Part shown: piece by piece, positions 3,667-62,503 of the stretch
Position numbering within the stretch: position 1 is the stretch's first letter
Layout: every line of letters begins with the position of its first letter
Assembly (NCBI GenBank): GCA_000004985.1
Contig: GG738883.1
Reading direction: 5' to 3' (one strand)
From: Naegleria gruberi
Taxonomy: Eukaryota
DNA: 64,000 nucleotides
Program-made: the position numbers and the translations under genes
The notes under the pieces: generated by a model
The model's database searches: none
What the model saw: only the letters and a program-made list of their open reading frames with translations
What the model was told of the DNA's origin: nothing

Positions 3667-6263
3667 TCACCTCACTTGGTTACCATCAAAAAGAACCATT
3701 ATTTGAATTTCATCAATAATGGAAGGCCAATTAATTAGACCCTCAATTGGAACCTTATCAAATAGTAAGGCAACAGGATAATTGTTCTCATCCTCAACAA
3801 ATAGGAATGCTTCGCATGAAAATTCATTTTCCACTTCACTAATCTCTGGACACAAGTGATCATATCGCTCCTTTGTAAATTTCACATATCTTAAGCGATC
3901 TTGGACTACAGCAAAGTATTTTCTGCCTTTCCAGTGGAATTTTCCAACCAGAGGAAAATCAGATTCATCTCTATTGAATGTAGTAACTGCAACTGAGGTA
4001 TTCGAATCTTTTTAATTGTTGATTTGATAAATTAGCAAATAAATTACTTACCATTTTGAGAGATTTCATTCTTGCCTTCTTGTGGAAGTAAATCGTGCAG
4101 TTTCTTCTTACAATCGAATGGCAATAATTTTGAGGAGAAGAGTGTCTCTATCACATGTTTAGGAATTAATGTTGAAAGTTTGGAATCTAGATTCTTGAGG
4201 ATATAGCTCGATACAATTCCACATACAAATTTCTCATGTTCCTTCCTTTCGAACTTTTCCATTAAATAGTAAATATAAATTGGGTTCAATATTTCTAATA
4301 TTTCAGAAATTGTTAAATCATCCACTAAATAAATACACAATTCGTGTAATAATTCCAATTCAAAAAAGGTCTTTTTTCTTAAAAAGGCAACCTTTCCCTC
4401 TTTTAAAAAATTGAAATATAAATCAAATATTTCAACAACGCCCTCATTCTTAATAGATGGAATAATTTCATTCGAAACTCCACTCAAATCAACTATCATC
4501 AGCCCATTCTGATTTCTTTCCACACTATTAATCCAATCTGAGCTTAACAAAGTTATGAAATAGTTTGATCTTTTCAGTAACTTTCCCTCACATTCAATTG
4601 AATCACTTTTAGATAATTTAATGAGGATTGTATCCTCAATTTGAATGTTTTCATGAGATTCACCTTCCTTAATATTATACGAATGTATCAATTTCATTAA
4701 ATTATCAAATGGAAATGGCATTAATTTGACATTTGGCTTTTCGATAATTGGTGATTTGACATGCTTTAACTTTTCTTGAAATAGTTCCAAGAAACTAGCT
4801 ATGGATTTTCTTTTGGAAAGGTTCATATTCTTTCCCATCCATTTCAATCCTTCAGAATAATTTAGTTCGGTTCCTCTTCCTTGCCAATACATTGATGAAA
4901 TTTTCAATTGAGCATTTAAGTTTCCTTGCTTGGCTGCTTTCAAATAGTATTCGAAAGCTTTAGAATCACTCTGTTCGATTCCTTTTCCTTTCAGATACAT
5001 TAGTCCAAGCTCAAAATGTGCTGTTGAATTTCCTTCCTCAGCTGCTTTTGAATACCATTTAAAAGCTTGTGAATAATCCTTATTGCACCCCTCTCCAGAG
5101 AAATACATATTCCCTAAGAGGACCATTGCCTCAGTCTCATTTTGGTTTGCAGATTTCAAAACCAATTCGAAAGCTTTCGAATAATCTTTTTCTACACCTT
5201 TTCCAAGAACAATCATTGATCCAGCAGCAAGTTGAGACTTTGCATCCCCTTGCTCAGCTGCTCTCAAATACCATTTCAAAGCTTTCGAATAGTCACCATT
5301 CGAATGATAAATCTTTCCACATACATTTTGAGAGGTCACGTCACCTAGCTCTGCAGCTTTCAGATACCATTCCATAGCTTTAGAAACATCTTTTTCAACT
5401 CCATGTCCAAAATAATATATACTTCCAATATCATATTGAATTGACAAAAGTTTTGGAACTCTTCCATGAGATTCAGCTTTTAAAAGCCATTCTAAAGTTT
5501 TGGAATAATCTTGTGGTACAGATTGTCCATAAAAATGCATGTAACCAATTTGAGCTTGTGATTCAAAACAACCCTTCTCTGCAGCTTTCGTATACCATTC
5601 AAAAGCTTTCGTATAATCTGGTTCAACCCCTATTATTCCTTCATAATAAATATGCCCAATAGTACGTTGAGCTGCACAATGCCCTTTCTCAGCTGCTTGC
5701 AAAAAGAATTCCATAGCTTTCGAATAGTCTTGTTCTATTCCAACCCCTTTCAAATACATTGACCCAATCTGGAATAGACCTGCCTGTGCAGTTTTCATAT
5801 ACCATTCGAAAGCTTTCGAATAATCAATCTCTGTATTAGCTCGATTATGATAAAACTCTCCAATCTTTTTCATTGCCAACAAGTGATTATCCCTAATCGA
5901 TGCAATACAAAAATCCAAATTACTAAATTCTTCCGCCAATAAGTAAACATAAAATTTCCAAATATTTTCTTCACACTTTTCATTTTCTGCATTTTTTAAA
6001 ATTTCTTCCAAATATTTTGCATAATCAATAAATTCACAATCTTCATTTTCTATTGTTGATCTATCTTCTTGATAATTATTGTTACGAATTAATTTAATTG
6101 TTTTTAAATTTTCCAAAACTTGATGAAATTTAGAATTGTTCCATCCGATTAAAAGTGAAATGTCATCGGTGGGTTCTTCTTCTTTTTGGTGGTGATTAAT
6201 GGTCTTCTTCTTCTTCTTGTTTGATTTCTGGCCAGATTTTTGATCATGAGAACGTTTTTTCAT
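3667..6263 (-). CDS. Sel1-repeat (TPR-like) protein with a BTB-like region. Proposed join: exon1 6263..4052, 44-nt intron 4051..4008, exon2 4007..3667.
   Basis: At least 8 tandem Sel1-like repeats (DYSKAFEWY.KAAE.G....Q..LG.MY..G.GV..D). A downstream region resembles BTB/POZ. The long ORF ends ...QNGK* but the last codons read AATG|GTAAGT. A 44-nt GTAAGT...AAAAAG intron joins in frame to a 113-codon open frame (3667..4007) that has no in-frame ATG of its own and a TAA immediately upstream of the acceptor. Confidence 0.6.
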
Positions 6264-10634: not shown

Positions 10635-13028
10635 TTATTGATCCAAAACTTGAATGAGGACAGAGTTTGGTTTTTTCACAATTTCACCAATTTTCCACAA
10701 ATTCAAATTCTTTTCCTTGAACGAATTGACCAGCTTTTCTTCCTCATCAGGAGAAATGGTAAACAGCAAGCCACCACTTGTTTGAGCATCTGCCAAAATT
10801 AATTGTTCTTCCTTTGATAGAGTTGAGGCGAATTCAACGAATTGTTGAACATTTTCCAAATTAGTTTTGGTTCCTCCAGGAATAACAATTCTCATTAAGG
10901 ATAGACAAGAAGAATCCAAAAGAGGAATTTGCTTTGCATTCAATTGAGCTACCAAATCCTTATTTTCCTCACAGATTTCTCTACTTCCTTTCATAATTTC
11001 CTTCAAATGTCCTAGTAATCCAAAACCTGTCACATCAGTGCAAGAAGAGACAGATTTCATTTCTCTCAACACATACGAAGTATCTCTATTCAAAGTCTTC
11101 ATAGAATTGATTGCAGATTGAGCTGTTTCAGATTCATATGGAACATTACCCAATTTCATTGCAGATGTAATGACACCTGTTCCAATTCTCTTGGTGAGGA
11201 ATAATAAATCTCCTTCTTCACATCCAACATTTCTGAAAATCTTGTCAGGATGAATAATGCCATTTACACTCATGCCGAATTTAGGTTCCTCATCATCGAT
11301 GGAATGACCACCAACAATGGCAACTCCAGCTTCATTGGCTTTATCGATGGAACCTCTCAAGATTTCTTGGAGAATTTCGATTGGGAGAGTTCTGGATGGG
11401 AAGGCAACAACACTGAGAGCTGTTTGTGGTTTACCACCCATTGCATAGACATCACTTAAGGCATTAGCACAAGCAATAGCTCCAAAATCGTAAGGGTTGT
11501 CCACAATTGGAGCGAAAAAGTCAATGGTGCTTACAATAGCAACGTGATCATTGATTTTGTAAACTGCTGCATCGTCACAGGTTGAATTTCCAACCAGAAC
11601 TGAATTATTTTCTGGTTGTTTTGGCAATTTCTGTAAAATACTGTCTAGTAATCGAGAATTAATCTTACATCCACATCCCAATCCAGAAGCTAATTGAGTC
11701 AACTTGACATTATCTGCATTAACGTTCAATGAAACTTTCTTTGAGAAACAAACTCCGCTTGAAGATATTGAACTAGAACAAGATGAAGCAACTCCTGTAG
11801 CTCCTCCACCACATGGACCACAGGATGATGAGCCACTTCCGCCTCCAGAAGTTGCCATTGATGGAGCAGCTCCTTTTGATTTTAGCCCAAAGTGAATCGA
11901 ACGGTTTCCAACGACATTAAAGTGATTTCCCAACCAAGTATCTGAAAGAACTGAGGCAGTATTTCCACAAACTAGAACTGGTTTGTGGGCTTCAAATTTG
12001 TGAGTACCATCCAATTGGTAACTTTGTGGATAGCCCTTAATACTTCCCTTATAATAAGCAACTTGTCCATAATCTTCACATAATGGTTCAAAATCGAATA
12101 ACTTGAATAATCTGTATGTGGAAGTGAATGACGAGAGCTCTGAAAATAAATCTTGCATATCCTCCTCACCTTTTGGTGGTACCATCGATATGGAAATCAT
12201 TGAGGAACGACTCAATTCTCTTGGATCTTCAAATCCAGACTTTTTCACAAATCTAATAAAGTCATTAATGTACATGGCATGTGAAAACAAATTGATGAGA
12301 CTCTTTTGTGAAGGCGCAATCAAGGATCTGTGGACAGAGTTTTGCAAGACGGAAATTTGCAAATTGTCCAATCTTCTATCGGTATAAATATCCTGATAGT
12401 AAAATTCACCTCCCTTTTTAAGTAATCCAAATGAAAGCTCAAACATTTTTCTCTTCTCTCTCAATTGGAATCCAGGGAAATTACCAATCATTACATCAAA
12501 GGATTCTTTCTTCTCCAATTCCACTTTCAGCTCATGCTGTTTTCCTAAATAAGTAAAGTCAATTGGACTAAATGACAAGTCCTTCAACAATTCATCCATT
12601 ACCTTAATCAACTCTTCCTCGCTCTCCAAACCTCCCATTCTATACAACTTTTCTCTATTTTCACTCAGTACCAACAATGAAACTCTTCCATTTCTTCCAA
12701 CCATTTTCGAAGCCACCAAAACATCTCTCATTGCACTTGATAATAACAACTCATCATCACCATTCGCACACAACACACCAACATTAAGGTGATGATGATT
12801 ATCGAGAGTGGATGATCCCAATCCCAGTGGAATATTCATTCCGATCATTCCCTGTGAAGAAAATGCTGAGGATTGATCTAAAAGTTTGCTGAGGAATTTT
12901 CTTAAAGTTTCCGAATGTAGGGTTGATGATGAGGCAATTTGGGAAAGTTGATTGAGTAGTTGGACATGATCTCTGTGATGAGAGTTACTGGAAATGAAAT
13001 TAAGATTTAAGAATTCTATCATTTTCAT
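10635..13028 (-). CDS. SPS: Selenophosphate synthetase (SelD/SPS, Cys-type) fused to an N-terminal arsenite/selenium-methyltransferase (AS3MT)-like domain.
   Basis: The C-terminal half has the SelD active-site signature LASGLGCGCKINSRLLDSIL (E. coli HGAGCGCKISPKVLETIL) and AIR-synthase-like blocks (AAVYKIND, FFAPIVDNPYDFGAIACANALSDVYAMGG). The N-terminal ~440 aa has AS3MT-like blocks (FDVMIGNFPGF...LLKKGGEFYYQDIYTDRRL; RLFKLFDFE; a Cys/Gly-rich SSSCGPCGGG segment). The expected GxGxG SAM loop appears degenerate (NVGVLCANGDDE). Confidence 0.85.
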   Translation of the reverse strand: MKMIEFLNLNFISSNSHHRDHVQLLNQLSQIASSSTLHSETLRKFLSKLLDQSSAFSSQGMIGMNIPLGLGSSTLDNHHHLNVGVLCANGDDELLLSSAMRDVLVASKMVGRNGRVSLLVLSENREKLYRMGGLESEEELIKVMDELLKDLSFSPIDFTYLGKQHELKVELEKKESFDVMIGNFPGFQLREKRKMFELSFGLLKKGGEFYYQDIYTDRRLDNLQISVLQNSVHRSLIAPSQKSLINLFSHAMYINDFIRFVKKSGFEDPRELSRSSMISISMVPPKGEEDMQDLFSELSSFTSTYRLFKLFDFEPLCEDYGQVAYYKGSIKGYPQSYQLDGTHKFEAHKPVLVCGNTASVLSDTWLGNHFNVVGNRSIHFGLKSKGAAPSMATSGGGSGSSSCGPCGGGATGVASSCSSSISSSGVCFSKKVSLNVNADNVKLTQLASGLGCGCKINSRLLDSILQKLPKQPENNSVLVGNSTCDDAAVYKINDHVAIVSTIDFFAPIVDNPYDFGAIACANALSDVYAMGGKPQTALSVVAFPSRTLPIEILQEILRGSIDKANEAGVAIVGGHSIDDEEPKFGMSVNGIIHPDKIFRNVGCEEGDLLFLTKRIGTGVITSAMKLGNVPYESETAQSAINSMKTLNRDTSYVLREMKSVSSCTDVTGFGLLGHLKEIMKGSREICEENKDLVAQLNAKQIPLLDSSCLSLMRIVIPGGTKTNLENVQQFVEFASTLSKEEQLILADAQTSGGLLFTISPDEEEKLVNSFKEKNLNLWKIGEIVKKPNSVLIQVLDQ

Positions 13029-16762: not shown

Positions 16763-18071
16763 TTATCTTCTTCTTCTGTATGAGGAGGAGGAAGAGGATC
16801 TTGAAGATGATCTAGATGGAGATCTGGAGTAAGATCTAGATGGGGATCTAGATGATGATCTTGAAGAGGATCTAGATGAGGATCTAGATGAGGATCTTGA
16901 AGATGATCTAGATGGGGATCTAGAATAAGATCTTGAGGTAGATCTAGATGGGGATCTGGATGATGATCTGGATGATGATCTTGATGATTGTCTACCAGAT
17001 GATCTAGAAGATTGTCTTGGTCTGTATTCTCTGGTTTGTCTTCTTCCAGTATTTTGTCTTCTACCAGTGGATTGTCTTCCAGTATTTTGTCTTCTAGTTG
17101 GTCTAGTAGATGGTCTGGTTGGTCTGGTTGTTGGTCTGGTTGATGGTCTAGATGGTCTAGATGGTCTAGTTGGTCTGGTTGATGGTCTAGATGGTCTGGT
17201 TGATGGTCTAGTTGGTCTAGATGGTCTTTGAGTGGATGGTCTAGATGGTCTAGTTGGTCTTTCAGTTGGTCTAGTTTGTTGAGTTGGTCTTTGGGCTGGT
17301 TGAGCAGGTTGTTGAGATGGAGCTCTTCCATTATCAAGAACATTCAAAGCAGCTCTATACTTTTGATCTCTGTCAGCCTTACCATTGTAACCACCGTTAA
17401 TTCTCTTGGTGATTCTATCGAAAGCATCTTGATTCTTTTGATCAGCATATTGATTCAAATTTCTAGAATTCCAGAACCAAGCAGCAGTCTTGAAACCAAT
17501 ATCTGGTCTTTCAGCAAGGGTTGGATTATTTTCCAAATCAACACCCAAAGCTTTACCAGCAGCACGATAATTGGAACGTCCAGTAATTTGAATAGGACCT
17601 CTTCCCTTATACTATAATTATATGAATGTAAATTATCATTAGATCAACATGTTAAAAAGCAAGACACAAAATTTGATGATAGAACAAAGATATTAGAAAT
17701 ACAACAATAATAACAAAAAAACATACTCTAACACCATCACCAGAATGAGTATTACCCAAATCCTTTCTACCTTCATAAGCCTTTCCAGAAGCAAATTCTC
17801 TAAACCACTTCAAGTTACCAGATTCATGACCCAATTGAGCCAAGAAAGCAGCTTGTCTAGCAGGAGTATTAATACCAGCAGAATTCATAGCTTCATTCAA
17901 GTGTCCAACATATTCATTAGCCTTTGATGAGGACAATCCAGGCATTAATTGACTCAATTCAGAGGCAGTCAAATCACGCAAGATATCGAAAGAGTCTTCA
18001 GTTGCTGATGCAGCGGCAGCGGCGAACATCAAACAAGCGAACAAAACGGCAACGATGGCGAAGAGTTTCAT
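16763..18071 (-). CDS. Secreted GH19 (bacterial/phage-type chitinase/lysozyme) domain protein with a long C-terminal Pro/Thr/Arg/Ser repeat tail. Join: exon1 18071..17727, intron 17726..17612 (GTATGT...TATAG), exon2 17611..16763.
   Basis: Signal peptide MKLFAIVAVLFACLMFAAAAASA. Exon1 ends ...AFLAQLGHESGNLKWFREFASGKAYEGRKDLGNTHSGDGVR and exon2 continues YKGRGPIQITGRSNYRAAGKALGVDLENNPTLAERPDIGFKTAAWFWN...INGGYNG. Together these make a contiguous GH19 catalytic signature. The ~180-aa tail is (RPSRPT)n then (SRSS)n, ending SSSSSSYRRRR. Confidence 0.8.
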
Positions 18072-19427: not shown

Positions 19428-19965
19428 GAAGTTTTGATATGTTTTTTTATGGTGGAAAGTGATAATTCAGCAGAATTATTGGTAATTATTTGAAACATTT
19501 CATAATTAAATTGGAATATTATGACAATGTTACCAATTCGAAGGAATTATTGTCAGTCTTTGAGGCTGTTATTCAATAAGTATGACTTTATTTAATTATA
19601 AATGTATTTATTTAATTTGGGGAAATCATCTTGTGCATATCACTTTTCCATCACCCTCAAAATCTCTTTTCCTCATAAAAACCACACAACCACATCCACT
19701 CATTCACACGCTTTCCATCTCCACAAAAACCAAAATAGCAAGAGCTCAAATCTCCAAATTTACACATCAATTCCTTATTTTCCTTAGCAATTTGATTTTA
19801 AAAAATATTCTTCGAAAAAAATTAGCAATAAGGTGAGTAGAGACCCAATACGAGATTTTTACGCTTAATATTTTGTTTGCTTAAATATTTGTCATCATCA
19901 TCACAATGATCATTATAAATATATTTGATGGATGAAATATATATCGGATTAATGTGTTGGTTAGG

Positions 19966-20787
19966 ATGGACACTCAACAACAACAAATCACTGAAATGAT
20001 CAATGATCTAAATGATAAAAAGGCAGAAATTTCTGCCAAGGTTGAAAAGGTGCAAGAAAACATTCAAAAGGTTAACAATTTTATTGAGGATAATCAAGAA
20101 AATATTCAAAAGGGAATTGAAACAGCCAATAAGGTTGTTGATACTGTTAATACAGTTCTTGAAAAGAAGGAAGAAATTGAAAAGAAGTTAAATGATATGC
20201 AAGAAGATCTCAAGATTAAGGCAACCAATACTTTGAATGCAATCGGATTGAATATTGCTGGAAAGGTTGCAGAAAAGTACAAGTTGAAATCACTCCCAGA
20301 AATGATGAACAGCATTCAAAATATCATTCCACCTGCTGTCTTGTATGGTTCAGTGATGAGAAAGCCAATGTTGACTCAATTCGGAACAATGATTCCAGGT
20401 TTTTCAGTTCCTTTCGAAACTATTGAGCTCATCGCTAGTTATGCATTCCTTGGTTTGCTTCCATTTGCCTTGTTCGTCAGCTTTATGGCAACCCAACAAA
20501 AAGCTAAAGTTGATGATGAATTGGCAAAGAGCAATGGCTCAATCAGAAGACACAAAAAGATTGCCATGTTGATGAGTATTTTGAGAGCTTCTTTGTGTGG
20601 ATTGGCTTATACTTGTTATGAATTGTTTGTTGGTCAAGTTCCTACTGAAATGGTGTTTGTCAAGTCTTATTTGCCTTACATGGCTTTTGCTACATTCACT
20701 TCAATTACTGGATACGAATGGTTAGATGCAAAGATTGATGATCTTGCTTACAAGTATTTGCCATCCCTCGTCAAGAAGGAAGAATAA
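19966..20787 (+). CDS. Hypothetical protein: N-terminal coiled-coil, C-terminal hydrophobic segments.
   Basis: 274-aa ORF with a heptad-rich N-terminus and TM-like LGLLPFALFVSFMA. No family recognised. Confidence 0.4.
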   Translation: MDTQQQQITEMINDLNDKKAEISAKVEKVQENIQKVNNFIEDNQENIQKGIETANKVVDTVNTVLEKKEEIEKKLNDMQEDLKIKATNTLNAIGLNIAGKVAEKYKLKSLPEMMNSIQNIIPPAVLYGSVMRKPMLTQFGTMIPGFSVPFETIELIASYAFLGLLPFALFVSFMATQQKAKVDDELAKSNGSIRRHKKIAMLMSILRASLCGLAYTCYELFVGQVPTEMVFVKSYLPYMAFATFTSITGYEWLDAKIDDLAYKYLPSLVKKEE

Positions 20788-20874: not shown

Positions 20875-22729
20875 CTAATTTTGTAAACGTAAATGGTCAA
20901 TAATTCTGACCAATCTCAGTCTCACTCCAACCTTAGCAATTCCCATTTCCAGCAGAATTTGATTATGTAAACCCAAAAATGCTAAACCATCAATATCGTG
21001 ATGTTTGAATAATTCACCAACATTATGAGAAGGGAATGAAGAATCCAAAGTATCAATCCATTGAGCAACCCTAAAGGTATCCCAACTTTCAAAATCTCCT
21101 CTTCTGATATACAATTGCTCCTTAAGTTTATCCTTTTCAATTGGAACAAATCGAGCATATGGTGGTAAATTGGCATCATTAGAAGAATCAGGTGAGGAGG
21201 AAGTTGTCATTACTCTGTTTGGTTGTTGCATATATTGATTGTTGTTCATTATTGGAGTAGTGACATTATTGGTCTTGATATTTGGAAATCCATTATTATT
21301 CTGAATTGGTGATGGTTGAGAATTCATTCCATTGAAATAAGGTGATGAGGAAAAATAATTAGAGGATGAAGCGGAGGAGACTGCACGTTCTCTTTGAGGT
21401 GTCACAGTATTAGAGATAGATGGATTCATACCACCATTATTATTGTACATTTGGATATCACTACGATTTACATTAGGATATGGCTCAGATCTGTACTTTT
21501 GATAACTTGCTGATCTCTCTCGTGTTTGTAATGAGGCAGGTGAATTTTCTGGATTGGAAGTAGTACCTTGTTGATTGAAAGATGGTGTTACTGGTTGTTG
21601 TTGCTGTTGTTGTTGGAAAGTATAGTTTGTTGTAGGAGTTTGAGGAGTGGAATATTGCTCGCTTTGAGTATTATTCGTTGGGGAGGAAGGTTGTGGAGAG
21701 CCTGGTGCGTCATCTTTCTTTTTTCTTCCTTTTTGCTTTGGTTCATAATATTGACAATCAATTCCTCTCTTTCCACACTCGGAACATTTTGGTAATAATC
21801 TGTCACACTATATATTAATTAATAAGGGAATGAAATTGAAAACAAACCTTCTTGTGTCTCTTTCTACATGGAATACAAGCGATTGGATGATATTCACCAG
21901 AGTTGTTATCATTAATTGGTGAACTACTCTTCTTATGAGTTTGATATTCATGGAAGATGGTATGTGCAACTGTTTGTTGCTGTGAGGTTGTGGAAGATGT
22001 ACTTTGGACAGCTGATTGAGCAGTGTTGTTAACAACACTTGATGGCATGCCATTATTCATGACAGTATTTTGAGATGTTGGTGGTATTTGTTGATACAAT
22101 TGTTGTTGCTGATGGACATTACCTTGTTGTTGAACATTCTCCATGTTATTATATTGAGGTGGAGGATTTTGCATAACCTGTTGTTGTGGATTGTTATTTG
22201 TTTGTTGTGGATTTGGGGCATAACCTTCAATGGTATTATTGTTACCAGGCATGCCATACGAAGGGCCACTAGTCGAATTCAAAGAAGGTAAAGCATTATT
22301 CATTGGTTGTTGACTTGGATATTGATGGTGAGCATAGGAACCATAGTATGGTGGTGGTTGTTGATGGTGATGAATTGGAGGATAATATCCACCATGTTGA
22401 CCATCTTGGTGAGGAGGTGGAATTCCATTACTAGATTGTTGATAATTTGGTGGAATTACATTAGGAGTTGGCATTGAATGATTCATCATATTATTAGATG
22501 ATGAAGTAGTGGTACTACTACTTGGTGTATTGTTATTATTATTGGTAGAGGACATTTGAACTTCTTCCTTATTCATCATCATTGGTGGGATGACACCACT
22601 TGTCGGTTGTTGCTGTTGCTGTCCATTATTATTATTATTATTCAAATATTGATGATGATGGTTCGGATGATGATTCGATGTTGTCGTTGTAGGAGGCGAT
22701 AAATGCTCTTCTTTCACGTTCGCTAACAT
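20875..22729 (-). CDS. Zn2Cys6 (GAL4-type) binuclear-cluster DNA-binding protein with a C-terminal SAM domain and Q/N-rich low-complexity regions. Join: exon1 22729..21848, 40-nt intron 21847..21808 (GTTTGT...TATATAG), exon2 21807..20875.
   Basis: Exon1 ends ACIPCRKRHKK and exon2 begins CDRLLPKCSECGKRGIDC. Only the spliced product gives a perfect C-x2-C-x6-C-x6-C-x2-C-x6-C motif. The C-terminus (WDTFRVAQWIDTLDSSFPSHNVGELFKHHDIDGLAFLGLHNQILLEMGIAKVGVRLRLVRIIDHL) fits a SAM domain. Confidence 0.7.
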
Positions 22730-23612
22730 CGCTTCTCAGTGATTTGTGTGGATAAAAATTTCTCAAAGCCTTTTTTTCTTTTAAGTTTTGGTTGCTCCTT
22801 TGCGGGTTATTCGCTGCAATTTTTTAGAGTGTTGACGATGAGCAGATTGACCTTTTTAGAGTATGGTGGAGAGGTTTTTGTGCGGTGAATATTAGAGTTC
22901 TGGAAAGTTGTAATTTTTTCAACACTCCTAGCTGGGCTGCCGCAGATTTCAACACAAGTTTTGGTGAATGGGTGAAACTGCAAATGAATGGAAAAGGTGA
23001 TGGGTGGTTTGCAGAATAAGGTCTTTTTTTTTCAACTTGTCCTCTCTCCCGTGAATCAATGTAAGAGGGGAAAATGGAGGAAGTTTGGTTGTTTTTCAAT
23101 TCGGATAGTTGCGCACAATAAACTTCATGTTTCTAATTGTGATGAATGGCAAGAGTTCGGGTGTTAATTGACCAATGCTGTTGTAATACTAAGCTCGATT
23201 GAGCGTTAAACTCCGTCTCAATAAAAGAAGTGTTTTGTTTCCATCATTTGATTTTTTATCTGAATCCAAGGACAATTTTTTACTGATGCAATAATGGGGA
23301 GAGATAAAAAACTTGTCCGCAGTAGTAGTTGCTTTTCCTCCAAGTCCTCAGGTTGCAGGAGAAAGTACATTGAGGATAAGATAAGGTCAGATAATATTCA
23401 ACTATGAAAAACATTGAGTTTTACCCAAGCATTTTCTCTTTTGCACTGTAGAAATATTGTGTTACAAGCGGAAGAAGTGTTCGCACATGTTTGCCATCAA
23501 GAACAAACAAGGAAGTCCCATCAAGTTCCTATTGATATTATTCCGTTTATACGAACTTAAAAAAGTGGCAGATATTCAATTTTTATTTATGTTTTATAAA
23601 TGATAGTGTGAA

Positions 23613-23683
23613 TCGGGTGTGGTATAGTGGTAGCATTCCAGACTGTCACTCTGGCGACCCGGGTTCAATTCCAGGCACTCGAG
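23613..23683 (+). tRNA. tRNA-Asp (anticodon GTC), possibly degenerate or a pseudogene.
   Basis: Cloverleaf: acceptor TCGGGTG/CACTCGA, anticodon stem CCAGA/TCTGG with loop CTGTCAC, T-loop TTCAATT. The D-stem (A.C) and T-stem (G.A) each carry one mismatch relative to canonical tRNA-Asp. Confidence 0.55.
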
Positions 23684-24552: not shown

Positions 24553-27131
24553 ATGTCGTCGTTCAATAACAACACTACCACACCACTTTCTCAACATGTA
24601 GTGGACGAAACTCAACTAAACACTGCTTCAATGATGTTAACAGTAACACAAGCATCATCAAATAATCTCGCAAAACTCGACACCAATGATAATTCCCCTT
24701 CTCCTGTAAATAATAACAATAGCCATTCGAATAACAATACGAATCATCAATTATTAGACGAAAGACAAAGTAATCATCACCATGCTAGACACGGTTCAAA
24801 TATTTCTGGATTTTCCAATCAATCTAATCAACACCACAATCATTCCCAACAAAATTCTCAGAATGTTAATCCTAAACACTCTCCAGCACTTTCGCATAAT
24901 GCTATTCACATAGACGAAACTTCAACTTTTACTAATTCACCACTGGCAGACCTTCTTTCACAAATGGATATTTATAATTGGGAAGATTTCGTGAAGAATA
25001 TGACACATTACCATCACGGTTCAAGAACTAATAGTTTTCTGACAAATGCCAGTTCGGCAACCCCAAGAGATTTGACACCTAATCAAATGAATGGACATTT
25101 GGCACCTCCAGGAAGTACTGAAAATCAAAATTCAAATACTCCAAGACCTGAAATTCATCTACCAACTGCCACGACAGGTTCAATGTCAGATGCTCCTAAA
25201 ATGACAATTTCCAAACTGTCAAGATATTATTCTATTGTCTTGGTTGTCAGAAGATATGTCAGACATGGTGGATGTGGTTTCTGTAACAGACGTATTGTTG
25301 AACTAGTCAATTGGTTCAAGAGTTTATTACAAATTGGAATTATTCCAGTTGTTTTGCATTCAGAAAGTGAAGAGGAAGGAAACGATTTCTTCCATCATTT
25401 TAAAAATCCAAATATTGCTCACATTCCAAGAGTTTCAGATCCAAAATATGAAATTTCGTCTACTTTATTGAAAATGTCTGGATCAACTCCGTTGGTTTTC
25501 AAGGATTTGACATTTATGGAAGGAATGAAAGTTTTTCCACATTACAAATCAGCTCTCAAGGAAGGATATTCTTTCCAAACTGACAAGACGAAGGAATTTG
25601 AGGAAACTTCAAAATTATTAGTTCCAAAAATGTTGCTTATTAGAAATAATCAAGTTGTTCATGTGGTAAGTAGTAATTGAAATTCTTATTGAAATTGGAT
25701 GCATTGAATTATTTGTGAATTTATATTCATAGTGGGATCATGGTTTTGGTGAGGGAGCTCCAGATATTCTCAGTACTGTTGTTTTGAAATTGCCATGGCT
25801 TGTCATGACGACAAATGACATGATGTCTGGAAGAACTGGAGGAGATTTGACTGATCTTCACACAAGAGGTTCGATATCTTCCAACATTACTGATATGGAA
25901 ATGAGAAATAATTACCTAGGAATTCCAACTAATGTAACTCGTAAGATTTCAAGTGGAGGTAATTCTCCAGGAAGAAAGATTTCGAATACTTCAAGTAATG
26001 GAGGACTTCATGTTCCTCATGGAAGCACCACCTCTCAGAATCATCATTATTTGGGAACAAGTGTGGAAAGTGTATCAAAGAGAGCCATTTCTGGTTCTCC
26101 AGCAGCTAATGGAGGACATTCACCAAAAGTTCAACAAGGAGGACATTCAATTCAATATTATTTGGATCAACTCTCTCACAATCAACCTAAGAATCCAGTG
26201 GTGGATTCTACTGATCAGGAACAAGATGCATTCGATGTCATTTCACCAACTGAGAATGCTCCAGGAGGAGATACCAAGCTCCTTCTCTCTCCATCAAAGA
26301 AGGTTCAATCAGCTGAGGAATTGCAAATTGAGGATATCAAGCCAGAATTAGTGGATATTCCAGATTTACCAATTGGTAGACATACACCTAGGTCTGTGGA
26401 CTCATCATCTGATGCTAATAACATGTTTGATTTATCAAAATTGAAATTCAAACTCACATACTTTAGAAAAATGGAGGGAACCCTCGATTTTGAAAAAGTT
26501 GACCAAGAACAATTGAGAGAAGAAGAAAAGACCAAAACACAACAAGCTAGGGAACTTCTCAAAAAGAAACAAAAGAGGAGTTTTTCATGTTTTGCAAAAC
26601 AGGCAGAACCAATTGAGGATTATTCAAGTGATGTGGCAGCAATTAAAGTGAATCTCCAATCCATTCTAGTTGACGAAGAAAAGAGAAAGTACTTCAAAAT
26701 ATTTGCCATGAAGGAATTCAATGCTGAAGTAAGTATTTGTTACAACAATTTGGAATTTCTAACACTATTAGAATATCTTCTTTTGGGAGGATGTCAATTT
26801 GATTTACAAGAAACTCTTCTTGGATCTTCATAACGTCTCAACTTCCAATGAGGAACTCAGAGAAAAAATTCAGTCAACTGCCAAATATCTCACTGGAAAA
26901 TATTTCTTGGACGAACTGAGTCTTTTCATTTTGAATACTTCCAATAATCTCAAACATAATGTTATCAATTCCACAAAATCTAACGATTTCTTCTCAACCG
27001 ACGATTGTAAATTCCTCTACGATGATGTTCTCTTGGAAGTTATGACAACTGTCTTACCTGACATGTATTATAGATTTATTGCTTCACCTCAATATCAAAT
27101 CATGTTGAAAGATTTGAGAAGAAGTAGATAA
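24553..27131 (+). CDS. RGS-domain protein with long low-complexity N-terminal region. Join: 24553..25665, 25733..26728, 26772..27131; introns of 67 and 43 nt (GTAAGT donors, TAG acceptors).
   Basis: Three track ORFs join in frame at canonical GTAAGT/AG sites. The RGS motif KRKYFKIFAMKEFNAE|NIFFWEDVNLIYKKL is completed across intron 2. Confidence 0.7.
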
Positions 27132-30726: not shown

Positions 30727-32259
30727 ATGAATACAACAACGGAAGACATCTTTTCCGAAGCTACAAATTCCATTCCGATTAATAATAATAATACTGATGA
30801 AGATGAAACCATGATGCAAGCTGCGATCGGAACGTTTTCTGATTTATCACATCAAACCGAATTGATGATTTCAATCTTTGAATATTTACCTTTAAATAAT
30901 ATTGCCTTGTCTTGTGCTTTGACTTGTAAGGCTTGGAATTCAATGATTCGTGAAACTCAAACTCTGTGGAGAAGTGTTTGTTTAAATGAGTTGGGATGGC
31001 CTGTTAGTCTATCAACGGATGATGTTTTATTTCAAGAGGAATTGAAGGCAAAGATTGAGAAGGGAGAAATGGATGCATTGTCGTCACCTCTTCCTTCCAA
31101 TTCAAAGGATGATTTAACTAAATCGAATGGAAAACGTGCCATTTCAATTTGTGGAAAGAGTTTCATGTGGAAGGATTTGTGTTTCATGTTGAATCAACCT
31201 GCTACTTTGTACATGTTTAGTAATACTTTGGCTTCAAAGAGGGATTGCACTGAATTGTATAATGAAATTATGAATGAGAGTTATACGATTTTGGACGATA
31301 CATTCCCAGATGATAAGTTTATTGTCTTGAAGAATGCCAAACTGATTGATTGTATTTGTACAGAATTGTTAATTTTACAAAAGCAAAAAGTGTTAACTCA
31401 GATTATGAGCGACAAATTGTACGATATTTTCATTCCAGTTCTTGAGAAGATGAGAAAGGAACCATTGTCTACAGATTCAATTCAATTATTGAGATATAGA
31501 CAAATTGTTTTGGGAAAGAACAAGTTTAGTTTCTTATTCACAAAAAAGAATTTTGAAGATATGCAACAAGTCGTTCAAGAAAATATCAAAGGAAAATACT
31601 CATTATTTGGAGTTTATTTATTGAATGATGATGGTCATAATTTCCAAGAAGTTACCGATCAAGTGAAACGAGCTTTTAATAATGATATTGACTTTGATTA
31701 TTGTGATTCATTGGTATATAAGGCCCATTTTAATGATGAAACTTTGCTATTTGAGACTCGTGACTTTGATGTTGCTATGGAGGCAGTTAAAACCCTCTCT
31801 GCCATTGATTTACATTGCATTCTTACACTTCCAGAATATGATGCCTTGCAAACCATTAGAAGAAGATTTGCAATTAACAGTGAAATGTTGGAATTTTATA
31901 ATGAATTTGCTCCTGAGAATGCCAAATCAAACTTTGATAAGATATTGAAAAATTCAAGTAAGGATGAAAAGTTTGTTGTGGTTCTCTATCGTTCCATGCA
32001 TAGTCCTGGTGGTATGGCAAATATTTTACGTTCCGTTTTTCCTAGTTTGAGTGAACAAGATTGCTTGGGAATTTACTTTACTGTTGCTACATTTGGATAT
32101 TGTTTTATTGCAAGTGGAACATTTGATCAGTGTAAAGCCATTGCTGAAAAGCTCACCAAACTTTTCCTTAATGTCATGTTAAAAACTGAAAAGCAAGCCA
32201 TATTGGATGAAACTGAAGAACAGGAAGAAGAGGAAGATGAATACATCGATGAGGAATAA
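30727..32259 (+). CDS. F-box-like protein with acidic C-terminus.
   Basis: ISIFEYLPLNNIALSCALTCKAWNSMIRETQTLWRSV fits the F-box consensus; ends DETEEQEEEEDEYIDEE. Confidence 0.5.
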   Translation: MNTTTEDIFSEATNSIPINNNNTDEDETMMQAAIGTFSDLSHQTELMISIFEYLPLNNIALSCALTCKAWNSMIRETQTLWRSVCLNELGWPVSLSTDDVLFQEELKAKIEKGEMDALSSPLPSNSKDDLTKSNGKRAISICGKSFMWKDLCFMLNQPATLYMFSNTLASKRDCTELYNEIMNESYTILDDTFPDDKFIVLKNAKLIDCICTELLILQKQKVLTQIMSDKLYDIFIPVLEKMRKEPLSTDSIQLLRYRQIVLGKNKFSFLFTKKNFEDMQQVVQENIKGKYSLFGVYLLNDDGHNFQEVTDQVKRAFNNDIDFDYCDSLVYKAHFNDETLLFETRDFDVAMEAVKTLSAIDLHCILTLPEYDALQTIRRRFAINSEMLEFYNEFAPENAKSNFDKILKNSSKDEKFVVVLYRSMHSPGGMANILRSVFPSLSEQDCLGIYFTVATFGYCFIASGTFDQCKAIAEKLTKLFLNVMLKTEKQAILDETEEQEEEEDEYIDEE

Positions 32260-34828: not shown

Positions 34829-36265
34829 ATGTCACAACATCAAGACAAAGAAACTATGCAACAATGTGCTCCATCACATGGTGACAATGGTTCGGAAGAG
34901 TTTATTTCGGTTGATGAAGTCAATAAAGCTTCAGAATCAAGTGCTTCCGATTCAATGATCATGGATGACAAACAAGTGAATTCTGACGAAAATGCTGCAA
35001 TTTATGAGAAGAAAATTCCAAAAGCTTTAATCGAGTTGAAGAAAATATTTTCTGATGATTTTGATTTTGAAGTGTTGAAGAATACGTATGGATTGAGTAA
35101 GAATGAGGCTCTGGTTGAGGGGATTGAAAAGGTAATTGTACAGGAAGGGGAAGGATTGGAAGCAAAACCAGGTTCTATCATTAGATGTAAGTGAAAGAAT
35201 TGAGTTTTTATTTGAATAATATAATTGAACATTCGAATAATAATAGTTTTGGAAGCCTGTGTAGTATTTTTTAAAAGAAATGAATTTAGTGATTGGGAAT
35301 TTCTTATTAGTTCTAATACATTGCTTCAGGAAAATAGATTGAAATTGAATAAGGTTCCACCAGTATTTTTCAAATGTATTCACACTCTCAAGTTGGGTGA
35401 GCGAGCCTTTTTTAAAATTCATAAGGATTTGTATCCAGAGTTGAAGGTTACTCGTTTGGATCCAGTTCAGGATGATGTGGAAACTACAAAATTAATTGAC
35501 CTTCTTAAATGCCACGATTATTATGGAGTTCAATATATCAGCATTACACATTTGGAATTGAAGGAGGCACCTTCACCAAAGGCATCCTTTGAAGAACATC
35601 TCGAGCAAATCAGTAAGAAGAGACTTGAAGGAAATGTGCTCTTTAAGGAATGCTCATTTGCTAAAGCATTGAAAACATACAATACTGGAATTATTTTCGT
35701 TAATGAGGCCAAGTTAGATGATGGTAAAATTGATGAACAAAAGGCAATACTGAAAGAAGAACGTATCAAGCTCTTAACCAATATTGTCAGATGCCAAAAC
35801 TCACTTAACAATGAAAAGAATCACAAGCTATGCCTTGATACTTGTGACAAGATTCTCTTCTACGAGCCAGAAAACCACAATGCATTCTATTTTAAAGCCA
35901 AAACTTACAATACACTCGACGATTATTCAAGAGGTCTTGAATGTATGGAAAAGGCAAAACACTATTTTTCCACTTACCAACAAAAGAATAGCAGTGATCC
36001 AATTCAACAAAAGAAGGACGCTGAACTGAAAAGCAGAATGGAAATTATTGAAAGGCAATTACTCAAAAAGAAGAAACTCCAAGAAGTACAGGACAATAAG
36101 CTTATGAAATCCAAAATGACTAACATGTTCTCTGAGGAACTCTATGCTGATACAGAACCATATGATGAGGAAGAGTATTGGAGAAAACAGCAAGAGGAAG
36201 ATGAAAGACTGGGCCGTAAGCCATGGTTCATGTCAGATGGCACCATTCACTATCAACAATTGTAA
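34829..36265 (+). CDS. FKBP-like + TPR protein (AIP/FKBP38-like). Proposed join: 34829..35186, 60-nt intron 35187..35246, 35247..36265.
   Basis: Exon1 ends ...VIVQEGEGLEAKPGSIIR, resembling the start of an FKBP domain. GTAAGT lies directly at the ORF end. The only in-frame acceptor (TAATAG at 35246) continues into the 3' ORF, which carries TPR-like repeats (LEGNVLFKECSFAKALKTYNTGI...). The FKBP part is degenerate, so the join is tentative. Confidence 0.5.
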
Positions 36266-42766: not shown

Positions 42767-43922
42767 TTACATAATTGAACACTTTTTTCCACTGTTGTTC
42801 CTTCTATATTTTTCTAAAATATTTGAGTCTTGTACAATGATTGTTTGTAATAGTTGTAAATCATCAGGTGAGAAGCTTTTCGACATTTTCATACATTCAT
42901 TAAATACTAAATCACTCTTCAACTTGTCCTGCGCAGATGCTTCAATAATTCTTGTGTTTTTCAATTGGAATCGAGTAATAATTTGGTTAATTTCATTCTT
43001 ACAATCAGTAATGGAAATTTGAATTTCTGTTTGTGGAATATCAATCTTGTTAATAACGAAAACCATGGGTAATCCAGCATTTTCGTTAATGTTCAAAATT
43101 TTCTTTACCATGCCATTTAAATTTTTCAAGGATTCACTGTTATCCAGAGAGCAGACCAGTATGAAACTCATTGCATCTCTAATATAACCATCTCTTAATG
43201 CTGCAAATTCCTCCTGACCAGCTGTTATTGAGCCATTGCATATTTATTTTCAATGGAATTCCAATAAAAATATGATATTGTACTTACCAGTATCCAGAAT
43301 TTCAGCAAAGACAGGTGCCCCATCAACAGAAACTTCCTTCCTATACGAATCCTCCAGGGTTGGATCATATAAACTAACAAATACACCCTGTATAAATTGA
43401 ATAGTCAAGGCTGTTTTACCAACCCTTGCTGCATATTTCAATTTAAATTTCACACCAAATAACAATTCAATAATAATTTTCAATAACATTTTAAATATTG
43501 AATAACATTCCAAATGATTACAAACCTTCTCCCATAATGACCATTTTAATAATATCCTTTTCCCAAACACTCTTTGAACTCTTCACTGCAGATTTAATAA
43601 ACCTCATCAATAACAGTTTCCTCCTCAAAACATTCTTTCTAATCATTTCCTCTTTCAATTTGTTTAATTCTTCCCCCAGTGATGCATTCGTTCCTAAATC
43701 CACTTGAAATAATTTCCACCAAAATTCCTCCATCAAATACTTGTTAGTTTCTTTGCAGAGTTTGGAATTAAGTGCTTGAAACTTGATAATGCTCAGTGCA
43801 CATGCCTTCCGAACCGAAAACTCAACTTGTTTAATATCCGAAGGAATTAGAAAAGAGAGAATATGTCGATGTATTTCGTTGGGTAATGAGAGAAAGGCTG
43901 ATGATGATTGCTTAGTAGACAT
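42767..43922 (-). CDS. F-box + Ras-family small GTPase fusion with a C-terminal CaaX box (CSIM). Join: exon1 43922..43526, intron 43525..43429 (GTTTGT...TATGCAG), exon2 43428..43288, intron 43287..43222 (GTAAGT...AACAG), exon3 43221..42767.
   Basis: N-terminus [33 protein letters not shown] is an F-box. The spliced GTPase reads ...KMVIMGEG|[48 protein letters not shown]|[14 protein letters not shown]...FVINKID...EASAQD...KKCSIM*. G1 (GEARVGKT) is completed across intron 1 and G3 (DTAGQE) across intron 2. The Ras effector loop [11 protein letters not shown] is present. Confidence 0.65.
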
Positions 43923-62430: not shown

Positions 62431-62503
62431 TCCCCCTTAGCTCAGTCGGTAGAGCGTCAGACTGTTAATCTGCAGGTCGGTGGTTCGAGCCCACCAGGGG
62501 GAG
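62431..62503 (+). tRNA. tRNA-Asn (anticodon GTT).
   Basis: Acceptor TCCCCCT/AGGGGGA, D-arm GCTC-AGTCGGTA-GAGC, anticodon loop CTGTTAA, T-arm GGTGG-TTCGAGC-CCACC; 73 nt. Confidence 0.85.

What the first reader, a model, noticed from the sequence alone, without database searches (positions are those of the whole stretch)
20875..22729. Zn2Cys6 binuclear cluster assembled only after removal of a 40-nt GTTTGT intron, combined with a C-terminal SAM domain
A 40-nt intron (21808..21847) interrupts the six-cysteine GAL4-type motif exactly between Cys3 and Cys4. Neither exon alone encodes a DNA-binding domain. Zn2Cys6 regulators are classically fungal and sparse elsewhere. Pairing one with a SAM oligomerisation domain and long poly-Q/N tracts is unusual. 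An ~870-bp ORF-free, relatively GC-rich upstream region (22730..23600) sits before the start, which fits a tightly regulated transcription factor.
Basis: seen in the sequence. Interest (0 to 1): 0.58.

Follow-up and report, generated by a model that had tools for sequence, protein, structure and literature searches.

The report
Naegleria zinc-cluster regulator with SAM domain
This is a real but already annotated gene of the amoeba Naegleria gruberi. It encodes a "fungal-type" zinc-cluster DNA-binding protein, split by an ordinary 40-base intron, joined to a SAM protein-interaction domain, a pairing I found only in Naegleria and its close relatives.

Summary
On the minus strand, exon 1 (22729..21848), a 40-nt GT..AG intron (21847..21808) and exon 2 (21807..20875) give a 604-aa protein. 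It has a canonical CX2CX6CX6CX2CX6C motif (Pfam Zn_clus, 37.9 bits) and a C-terminal SAM domain.

The error is the intron's position. It lies directly 5' of the Cys3 codon, so between Cys2 and Cys3, not between Cys3 and Cys4.

The intron is real:
- Two relatives carry an intron of different length and sequence (38 and 79 nt) at the same site.
- Two other relatives read straight through an uninterrupted motif.

The window is Naegleria gruberi. The spliced protein is 604/604 identical to the public model XP_002674618.1 (NAEGRDRAFT_70226, "predicted protein"), so the gene model is not new.

Zn2Cys6 genes are a multigene family in Heterolobosea, with several members each in N. gruberi and Willaertia. 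The Zn_clus+SAM pairing is rare. In a profile search of 1.84 billion representative proteins, only this Naegleria-clade orthogroup has it.

The likely function is inferred, not shown: a nuclear transcription factor whose SAM domain supplies the self-association that a coiled coil gives fungal members. Interest is low to moderate.

The parts
21848..22729 (-). Exon 1 (ATG at 22729..22727). It encodes aa 1-294: an N/Q/P/S-rich, predicted-disordered N-terminus, then Cys1 and Cys2 of the zinc cluster (CIPCRKRHKK, 21877..21848).
   Evidence: The N-terminus VKEE is shared with orthologues. pLDDT is below 50 for aa 1-282.
21808..21847 (-). Phase-0 spliceosomal intron, 40 nt, AAG|GTTTGT...CTTATTAATTAATATATAG|TGT, 20% GC. 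If retained it shifts the frame and gives a TAA stop at 21817..21815.
   Evidence: There is an intron at the same site in L003 (38 nt, GTATGT..TTTAG) and in N. lovaniensis L001 (79 nt, GTACGT..AAAG). L002 and L004 have none. tblastx homology breaks exactly at 21848/21807. The public model uses the same join.
20875..21807 (-). Exon 2. It encodes aa 295-604 plus the stop (20877..20875): Cys3-Cys6, a basic stretch, a disordered S/N/Q/P-rich linker and the SAM domain.
21730..21880 (-). Coding span of the Zn2Cys6 (Pfam Zn_clus) domain, aa 284-320, including the intron. The six Cys are aa 285, 288, 295, 302, 305 and 312. The invariant flank YEPKQKGRKKKD follows.
   Evidence: Zn_clus 37.9 bits, E 1.9e-9. 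PDB sequence hits are HAP1/CYP1, LAC9, PUT3 and GAL4. There are 0 nonsynonymous and 9 synonymous differences against L003 over aa 278-326.
20887..21090 (-). Coding span of the SAM domain, aa 534-601. A conserved helix RFVPIEKDKLKEQL (aa 513-526) precedes it.
   Evidence: SAM_1 and SAM_2 score above their cut-offs. The AF2 model has pLDDT above 90. The best Foldseek PDB matches are the Scm, Sfmbt, CNK/HYP, L3MBTL3, PHC3, Shank and DGK-delta SAM domains, TM 0.7-0.86.
21475..21498 (-). Conserved linker motif KYRSEPYP (aa 398-405). Variants of it (R/H-x-x-PYP/S) also follow the Zn cluster in heterolobosean paralogues.
   Evidence: Invariant Y399, R400, E402, P403, Y404, P405 across four orthologues. 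R400 and E402-P405 are still invariant when P0005 is added. Present in Willaertia and N. gruberi paralogues. Function unknown.
21364..21393 (-). Conserved motif RERAVSSASS (aa 433-442). It fits the basophilic-kinase pattern RxRxxS, so it is a candidate phosphorylation site.
   Evidence: Invariant R433, R435, A436, S438-S441 across four orthologues. The kinase-site reading comes from the motif pattern only.
22845..22900 (-). Upstream non-coding blocks conserved with the close relative L003: GAACTCTAATATTCACCG (22900..22883) and AAAAAGGTCAATC (22857..22845), 116-171 nt before the ATG. A third block, TATTGTGCGCAA, lies at 23120..23109. These are candidate promoter or 5'UTR elements.
   Evidence: The blocks lie at similar distances from the ATG in both species. 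Function not tested.

Best explanation
This is the Naegleria gruberi gene NAEGRDRAFT_70226 (XP_002674618.1), a two-exon gene for a 604-aa, mostly disordered nuclear regulator.

Shown:
- An ordinary phase-0 spliceosomal intron of 40 nt lies directly before the Cys3 codon. Splicing joins Cys1-2 to Cys3-6 and makes a canonical GAL4-type Zn2Cys6 DNA-binding domain.
- A canonical five-helix SAM domain ends the protein.
- Both domains are under purifying selection.
- The architecture is conserved in N. fowleri, N. lovaniensis and three environmental relatives.

Inferred:
- The zinc cluster binds short CGG-like half-sites in the way fungal members do.
- The region after the cluster is P/S-rich and has no predicted coiled coil. 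The C-terminal SAM domain would therefore provide self-association (dimer or head-to-tail polymer), bringing two or more zinc clusters together on repeated sites across a flexible linker of about 200 aa.
- The N/Q-rich N-terminus acts as the activation region.
- The conserved RxRxxS and KYRSEPYP motifs are regulatory sites.
For: Gene, intron and motif:
- Gene structure and motif.
- Pfam domains above their curated cut-offs.
- PDB sequence hits to HAP1, LAC9, PUT3 and GAL4 for the Zn cluster and to Scm for the SAM domain.
- Identity to the public model, 604/604.
- The window is N. gruberi.
- Intron at the same site, with 38, 40 or 79 nt of divergent sequence, in three species. The motif is contiguous in two others. 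Homology breaks exactly at the intron borders.

Selection and structure:
- Against L003, the Zn region has 0 nonsynonymous and 9 synonymous changes. The SAM region has 12 nonsynonymous and 28 synonymous.
- The SAM model has pLDDT above 90 and matches self- or hetero-associating SAM domains (Scm, PHC3, L3MBTL3, Shank, DGK-delta, CNK/HYP) at TM 0.7-0.86.
- In the full-length model only aa 283-323 and 518-601 are ordered, with no helix between aa 324 and 515.
- There is no Fungal_trans domain.

Distribution:
- The architecture is restricted to this orthogroup among 1.84 billion representatives.
- No SAM lies next to the Zn-cluster matches in the JGI metagenome loci.
Against: - There is no transcript, DNA-binding or oligomerisation data here. 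The SAM self-association step rests on fold resemblance only, and many SAM domains are monomeric or bind other partners.
- The base-contacting position that is Lys18 in GAL4 (from memory of the GAL4-DNA structure) is an invariant His here (CRKRHKKC). The recognised triplet may therefore differ from CGG.
- The Zn-cluster part of the AF2 model has only moderate confidence (pLDDT 54-69).
- The donor GTTTGT is atypical. The other candidate introns in the window mostly use GTAAGT.
Confidence: 0.7

Rival explanations
1. The gene and DNA-binding domain are as above, but the SAM domain does not self-associate. It docks the factor to other SAM-containing proteins, such as signalling scaffolds or kinases, or chromatin repressors. 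Known examples of such pairs are Ste11-Ste50, CNK-HYP and Scm-Sfmbt.
For: - Several of the best structural matches are hetero-SAM complexes: Scm-Sfmbt, CNK-HYP and SAMD1-L3MBTL3.
- Heteroloboseans encode SAM-only proteins whose SAM domain is 35-40% identical to this one: Willaertia P0015 (389 aa) and the fragment P0019.
Against: - The same structural matches (Scm, PHC3, Shank, DGK-delta) also form homopolymers.
- The protein has no other visible dimerisation element, although Zn2Cys6 proteins usually act as dimers (the dimer rule is family knowledge).
- No partner was identified.
Confidence: 0.22
2. The SAM domain is an RNA-binding module of the Smaug/Vts1 type, or the protein is not a transcription factor at all.
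For: Some SAM domains bind RNA hairpins (family knowledge). Nothing found here points this way.
Against: - No Smaug or Vts1 structure is among the top 50 structural matches.
- A canonical, strongly conserved Zn2Cys6 domain followed by a basic KQKGRKKK stretch argues for DNA binding and nuclear localisation.
Confidence: 0.04
3. The 40-nt segment is not an intron. It would be an assembly or sequencing error, a pseudogene lesion, or a contaminating fungal sequence.
For: - The donor GTTTGT has an unusual pyrimidine at position +3.
- 40 nt is at the short end of the candidate introns in the window.
Against: - Independent genomes carry an intron at exactly this site with different lengths, and two have none.
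- Flanking codons are under purifying selection.
- The scaffold is N. gruberi, and the downstream neighbour gene is shared with the contig of the intronless orthologue L002.
- The nearest Zn-cluster relatives are heterolobosean, not fungal.
- The public gene model makes the same join.
Confidence: 0.02

Closest known systems
Fungal Zn2Cys6 (GAL4 / HAP1 / PUT3 / LAC9) transcription factors, Pfam PF00172
   Same: - The six-Cys spacing CX2CX6CX6CX2CX6C.
- Basic residues between Cys2 and Cys3.
- A Pro before Cys4.
- A basic stretch after Cys6.
- Pfam score above the cut-off, and PDB sequence hits to HAP1/CYP1, LAC9, PUT3 and GAL4.
   Different: - The organism is a heterolobosean, not a fungus.
- There is no coiled-coil dimerisation element and no Fungal_trans / middle-homology region.
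- It has a C-terminal SAM domain instead.
- An invariant His replaces the usual Lys in CRxRKxKC.
- It carries the lineage-specific flanks HPIAC... and ...YEPKQKGRKKK, and a downstream PYP motif.
Heterolobosean Zn_clus paralogues (N. gruberi XP_002672531.1 'GAL4 domain-containing protein', NAEGRDRAFT_75695/63966/50776; Willaertia magna KAL9656101.1, KAL9658689.1 and others)
   Same: - The closest DNA-binding domains in the 1.84-billion-protein library.
- They share the extended signature HPIAC..CR..HK.C.K.LP.CS.C...G..C.Y..PK.KGRK and the downstream R/H-x-x-PYP/S motif.
   Different: - The Willaertia paralogues read in full have no SAM match and carry a long C-terminal region instead. Only the orthogroup of this gene ends in a SAM domain.
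- Intron positions differ. P0009 has none in the motif, and P0006 has one after CDKK, between Cys3 and Cys4.
SAM/Pointed-domain transcription factors that self-associate (ETS family TEL/ETV6 and Yan; Polycomb Ph/Scm; plant LEAFY)
   Same: A sequence-specific DNA-binding domain is combined with a SAM-fold domain. The SAM model superposes best on Scm, PHC3 and L3MBTL3-type SAM domains. This is a 'works like' comparison only.
   Different: - The DNA-binding domain is unrelated (Zn2Cys6 rather than ETS or others).
- Self-association of this SAM domain is untested.
- There is no orthology; the combination arose independently.
Orthologues: N. lovaniensis C9374_005614 (761 aa), N. fowleri unnamed protein (766 aa), and the environmental proteins P0001 (613 aa), P0005 (317 aa) and the L003 gene (570 aa)
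   Same: The same order of Zn cluster, KYRxEPYP, RERAxSSASS and SAM. The Zn cluster and SAM domain are near-invariant.
   Different: - The low-complexity regions differ in length and sequence.
- The intron is present (38, 40 or 79 nt) or absent depending on the species.
- P0005 lacks the long N-terminal region.

Membership tests
Zn2Cys6 binuclear cluster (GAL4-type, PF00172) | Six cysteines spaced CX2CX6CX5-12CX2CX6-8C | tested here: met
   aa 285-312, CIPCRKRHKKCDRLLPKCSECGKRGIDC, after splicing. All six Cys are invariant in five orthologues.
Zn2Cys6 binuclear cluster (GAL4-type, PF00172) | Profile score above Pfam's gathering threshold | tested here: met
   37.9 bits against 21, E 1.9e-9, profile positions 2-38 of 39.
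Zn2Cys6 binuclear cluster (GAL4-type, PF00172) | Binds two Zn(II) ions and CGG-type DNA half-sites | not testable with these tools
   This needs metal analysis and DNA-binding assays. The invariant His at the GAL4 Lys18-equivalent position (mapping from memory) leaves the specificity open.
Zn2Cys6 binuclear cluster (GAL4-type, PF00172) | Typical of the family but not obligatory: a coiled-coil dimerisation element after the linker, and a Fungal_trans / middle-homology regulatory domain | tested here: not met
   There is no Fungal_trans hit. aa 324-517 have pLDDT below 50, with no predicted helix between aa 324 and 515, and are P/S/N/Q-rich.
SAM domain (PF00536 / PF07647) | Profile score above the gathering thresholds | tested here: met
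   SAM_1 25.3 bits against 23. SAM_2 23.8 against 20.5, aa 534-601. The margins are narrow, but the orthologues P0004 and P0005 also pass.
SAM domain (PF00536 / PF07647) | Compact five-helix bundle fold | tested here: met
   The AF2 model has pLDDT above 90 for aa ~530-601. Foldseek matches solved SAM domains at TM 0.7-0.86 and rmsd 1.5-2.3 A.
SAM domain (PF00536 / PF07647) | Head-to-tail homo- or hetero-oligomerisation (true of a subset of SAM domains) | not testable with these tools
   Only monomer prediction was available, and interface residues were not mapped.
U2-type spliceosomal intron | GT...AG borders; removal restores one open frame, while retention closes it | tested here: met
   AAG|GTTTGT...ATATAG|TGT. 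At 40 nt (3n+1) retention shifts the frame, and a TAA follows 11 codons after the donor.
U2-type spliceosomal intron | The spliced reading is collinear with orthologues. The intron site is shared, while the intron sequence and length drift. | tested here: met
   L003 has 38 nt and N. lovaniensis 79 nt at the same phase-0 site. L002 and L004 are intronless. Identity to L003 is 26 of 40 positions in the intron, against 51/60 and 56/60 in the flanking exon sequence.
U2-type spliceosomal intron | Direct transcript evidence for the junction | not testable with these tools
   No RNA data are available.
ETS/Pointed-type SAM transcription factors (TEL, Yan) | An ETS DNA-binding domain together with a Pointed (SAM_PNT) domain | tested here: not met
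   There is no ETS or SAM_PNT hit. This family is a functional analogy only.

The most novel reading that the evidence does not exclude
Naegleria and its close relatives independently built a polymerising transcription factor. They would have done so by replacing the coiled coil and regulatory domain of a Zn2Cys6 protein with a Ph/Scm/TEL-like SAM domain. The factor would then spread or cluster along arrays of half-sites, and could control a lineage-specific programme such as the amoeba-to-flagellate switch or encystment. This would be a convergent reinvention of the TEL/Yan/Polyhomeotic principle outside animals and plants.
Probability: 0.15. Interest if true: 0.55.

Novelty: new variant of a known kind. 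Interest (0 to 1): 0.3.

Why it matters
As a sequence feature it matters little. The gene model, intron included, has been in the public N. gruberi annotation all along, and an intron that splits a domain is routine.

The modest point of interest is evolutionary and mechanistic:
- Zn2Cys6 regulators are often called fungus-specific, yet Heterolobosea carry a whole family of them with their own sequence signature.
- One conserved member swaps the usual dimerisation and regulatory parts for a SAM domain.
- If that SAM domain self-associates, it would be an independent example of SAM-driven oligomerisation of a DNA-binding protein.
- It would also offer a compact, testable entry point into transcriptional control in Naegleria. 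No paper in the searched library touches on this, and the genus includes the pathogen N. fowleri, which has the orthologue.

Tried and rejected
- Exact look-ups of two window ORFs and of P0153 and P0002 found nothing on record.
- The first whole-protein homology search missed the N. gruberi model and P0004. A trimmed query found only two fragments. The public model surfaced only as a member of the cluster represented by fragment P0159.
- Literature searches found nothing relevant. I tried Naegleria with Zn2Cys6, binuclear cluster, Zn_clus and GAL4, the accession numbers, Zn_clus with Excavata, and Zn2Cys6 with sterile alpha motif. The de Mendoza 2013 paper, tried under a PMC id recalled from memory, and the Fritz-Laylin 2010 paper, tried by DOI, were not held.
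- Rfam found only the two tRNAs, so the GC-richer upstream region holds no known RNA family apart from the neighbouring tRNA-Asp.
- The JGI metagenome scan returned eight Zn-cluster-only loci, none with a SAM domain within 3 kb.
- Alternative acceptors for the same donor give introns of 70, 79 or 112 nt. I rejected them because they delete Cys3-Cys4 or more, and they disagree with the intronless orthologues.
- Pseudogene, assembly error and fungal contamination were considered and rejected (see the rival explanations).
Full report
**1. What is in the sequence**

The minus strand of 20875..22729 carries two open stretches separated by 40 nt.
- Exon 1 is 22729..21848 (882 nt, 294 codons).
- The intervening segment is 21847..21808: GTTTGTTTTCAATTTCATTCCCTTATTAATTAATATATAG, 20% GC.
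- Exon 2 is 21807..20875 (933 nt including the stop).
- Joining the exons gives a 604-aa protein. Residues 285-312 read CIPCRKRHKK|CDRLLPKCSECGKRGIDC, which is CX2CX6CX6CX2CX6C.
- Left unspliced, the frame runs KKVCFQFHSLIN and stops.

Its statement that the intron lies between Cys3 and Cys4 is wrong. Exon 1 ends after the two lysines that precede Cys3, and exon 2 starts with the Cys3 codon. The split is therefore Cys1-2 | Cys3-6, in phase 0.

**2. Domains**

- Pfam scores Zn_clus at 37.9 bits (cut-off 21, E 1.9e-9, aa 284-320).
- SAM_1 scores 25.3 bits (cut-off 23) and SAM_2 23.8 bits (cut-off 20.5), both at aa 534-601. There is no Fungal_trans or other domain.
- Against PDB sequences, the Zn region matches HAP1/CYP1, LAC9, PUT3 and GAL4. 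The SAM region matches Scm best.
- An AlphaFold2 model of the last 110 residues is confident (pLDDT above 90 from about residue 35 of 110). It superposes on solved SAM domains: Scm, Sfmbt, CNK/HYP, L3MBTL3, PHC3, Shank and DGK-delta (TM 0.7-0.86 normalised to the target, rmsd 1.5-2.3 A).
- In a full-length model only aa 283-323 and 518-601 are ordered. The first has pLDDT 54-69 and two short helices, as expected for a metal-dependent mini-domain. The second has pLDDT above 90.
- aa 1-282 and 324-517 have pLDDT below 50, and no helix is predicted between aa 324 and 515. These regions are N/Q/P/S/T-rich.

**3. Organism and annotation status**

A neighbouring ORF (10635..13028, a methyltransferase-SelD fusion) is 100% identical to a Naegleria gruberi predicted protein on a 371,401-nt scaffold.

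The spliced protein is 604/604 identical to XP_002674618.1 / EFC41874.1 / D2VMQ9_NAEGR / NAEGRDRAFT_70226, named "predicted protein", on a scaffold of the same length. The gene model, including this 40-nt intron, is therefore already public. It is only unnamed and unstudied.

No paper in the held library mentions the accession. None links Naegleria to Zn2Cys6, binuclear-cluster or GAL4-type factors. The only two papers that mention both Zn2Cys6 and sterile alpha motif are a Fusarium gene review and a Magnaporthe PHD-protein study, and I did not open either.

**4. Is the intron real?**

Yes. The evidence is comparative.
- Orthologues with the same architecture exist in N. lovaniensis (C9374_005614, 761 aa) and N. 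fowleri (766 aa). They also occur in environmental assemblies: P0001 (613 aa), P0005 (317 aa), and contig L003, whose spliced gene gives 570 aa.
- At the DNA level, three species have an intron at the identical phase-0 site. N. gruberi has AAG|GTTTGT...40 nt...TAG|TGT. L003 has AAG|GTATGT...38 nt...TAG|TGT. N. lovaniensis has AAG|GTACGT...79 nt...AAG|TGT.
- L002 and L004 read AAA|TGC straight through.
- tblastx between L002 and the window breaks exactly at 21848/21807.
- Against L003, the flanking 60 nt are 51/60 and 56/60 identical, while the intron is 26/40 identical.
- Codon comparison with L003 gives 0 nonsynonymous and 9 synonymous differences in the Zn region. It gives 12 nonsynonymous and 28 synonymous in the SAM region.
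- Other candidate short introns in the window are 43-116 nt and mostly use GTAAGT. GTTTGT is an unusual donor but not an implausible one, and it is helped by the consensus AAG on the exon side.

This is an ordinary spliceosomal intron that has been lost or gained within the clade. A Willaertia paralogue (P0006) has a 67-nt intron three codons further on, between Cys3 and Cys4. Another (P0009) has none in the motif. Introns inside this motif are therefore unremarkable in the lineage.

**5. How unusual is the protein?**

Zn2Cys6 proteins are not sparse in Heterolobosea.
- The closest zinc clusters in a profile search of 1.84 billion representative proteins are heterolobosean. They come from Willaertia magna (products of at least eleven different locus tags) and N. 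gruberi (at least four more). One N. gruberi protein is already named "GAL4 domain-containing protein".
- There is also one hit from the oxymonad Streblomastix, plus unnamed metagenome proteins.
- These proteins share a lineage signature, HPIAC..CR..HK.C.K.LP.CS.C...G..C.Y..PK.KGRK, and a downstream R/H-x-x-PYP/S motif. Here that motif is KYRSEPYP, aa 398-405.

The rare feature is the SAM partner.
- Of the 150 best hits, I Pfam-scanned every one with more than one matched stretch. Only P0003, P0001 and P0005 combine Zn_clus and SAM. P0004 is a C-terminal fragment of the same orthogroup.
- The other multi-stretch hits were tandem Zn clusters, tandem SAM domains, or septin-Zn_clus fusions.
- A JGI metagenome scan found eight Zn-cluster loci, none with a SAM domain within 3 kb.
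- Limitation: only 150 of the 616 hits were listed, so very divergent Zn_clus+SAM proteins elsewhere cannot be excluded.

**6. Upstream region**

- 22730..23612 has no ORF of 120 aa or more. Its GC is 36.5%, against a mean of 29.5% for the window's non-ORF segments.
- It ends at a divergently oriented tRNA-Asp(GTC) gene at 23613..23683. Rfam finds nothing else there.
- Three exact blocks are shared with L003 at similar distances from the ATG: 18 nt at 22900..22883, 13 nt at 22857..22845, and 12 nt at 23120..23109.
- These are plausible promoter or 5'UTR elements. "Tight regulation" remains conjecture.

**7. Most likely mechanism**

Shown:
- A conserved, selected gene encodes a canonical Zn2Cys6 domain, then a basic stretch (YEPKQKGRKKKD, invariant), about 200 disordered residues with two invariant short motifs, and a canonical SAM domain.

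Inferred from family knowledge:
- Zn2Cys6 domains bind CGG-type half-sites and normally work as dimers held by a coiled coil next to the cluster.
- No such element is visible here, so the SAM domain is the only candidate oligomerisation module. Its nearest structural relatives are SAM domains that form head-to-tail homo- or hetero-oligomers.
- I therefore favour a SAM-mediated dimer or polymer that brings several zinc clusters onto repeated sites with loose spacing. The N/Q-rich N-terminus would act as the activation region. RERAVSSASS (RxRxxS) would be a kinase-regulated site.

The main rival is that the SAM domain docks onto other SAM proteins. Willaertia encodes a SAM-only protein whose SAM domain is about 40% identical.

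The invariant His in CRKRHKKC sits where GAL4 has a base-contacting Lys (my recollection of the GAL4-DNA structure). The half-site may therefore not be CGG.

**8. Comparison and verdict**

- The protein is a member of the Zn2Cys6 family by motif and profile. It lacks the family's usual coiled coil and middle-homology region.
- It contains a SAM domain by profile and by fold.
- It may work like TEL, Yan or Ph-type SAM-bearing regulators, but it is not related to them.
- The gene model is already known and the intron is ordinary.
- The domain architecture is a lineage-restricted variant, undescribed in the literature I could search.
- Interest is low to moderate.

Noticed in passing
window 10635-13028 (-): A 797-aa ORF fuses a methyltransferase-like N-terminal part to AIRS/AIRS_C (selenophosphate-synthetase type) domains. 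It is 100% identical over 92% of its length to the 737-aa N. gruberi model P0153, so the open frame extends about 60 codons upstream of the annotated start.
   Followed up: partly
window 23613-23683 (+) and 62431-62503 (+): tRNA-Asp(GTC) and tRNA-Asn(GTT) genes. The tRNA-Asp gene lies 884 nt from the ATG of the zinc-cluster gene, in divergent orientation, and bounds the 'ORF-free upstream region'.
   Followed up: yes
window 22883-22900, 22845-22857, 23109-23120: Short exact non-coding blocks (18, 13 and 12 nt) are shared with the close relative contig L003 at similar distances upstream of the ATG. They are candidate promoter or 5'UTR elements.
   Followed up: partly
L002:3356-3505, L004:2773-2913, L003:~1814-1998, L001:6060-6285: The intron at one phase-0 site shows presence/absence variation across the Naegleria clade. 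Intron-bearing genes have AAG|GT...AG|TGT, and intronless ones have AAA|TGC. The direction (loss or gain) was not resolved.
   Followed up: partly
L006:1633-1699 (Willaertia magna JBEGDK010000031.1): The paralogous Zn-cluster gene P0006 has a 67-nt GTAAGT intron after CDKK, between Cys3 and Cys4. This is a different site in the same motif.
   Followed up: yes
proteins P0031, P0051, P0107, P0141 (P0031 = Peniophora sp. VDC04445.1): Proteins combining a septin GTPase domain with two Zn2Cys6 clusters turned up among the Zn-cluster hits. It is an odd architecture, and it may reflect fused gene models. Only P0031 was traced to an organism.
   Followed up: no
proteins P0015 (Willaertia magna KAL9645989.1, 389 aa) and P0019 (78-aa fragment): These are SAM-only proteins whose SAM domain is 35-40% identical to the one studied here. 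They are possible hetero-SAM partners.
   Followed up: no
window 30727-32259 (+): A 510-aa ORF has an F-box and a weak ClpS-like match (22.4 bits, just below the cut-off of 23).
   Followed up: no
window 4008-4051, 17612-17726, 25666-25732, 26729-26771, 35187-35246, 43222-43287, 55313-55428: Candidate short introns (43-116 nt) join long open frames elsewhere in the window. Nearly all have GTAAGT or GTATGT donors. They were used only as a local reference for splice-site usage, and the acceptor choice was not verified.
   Followed up: no
window 19954-20787 (+) / L002:4406-4858 (-): The convergent downstream neighbour is a 277-aa coiled-coil plus membrane-like ORF with no significant Pfam family. 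It is syntenic with the contig that carries the intronless orthologue.
   Followed up: partly
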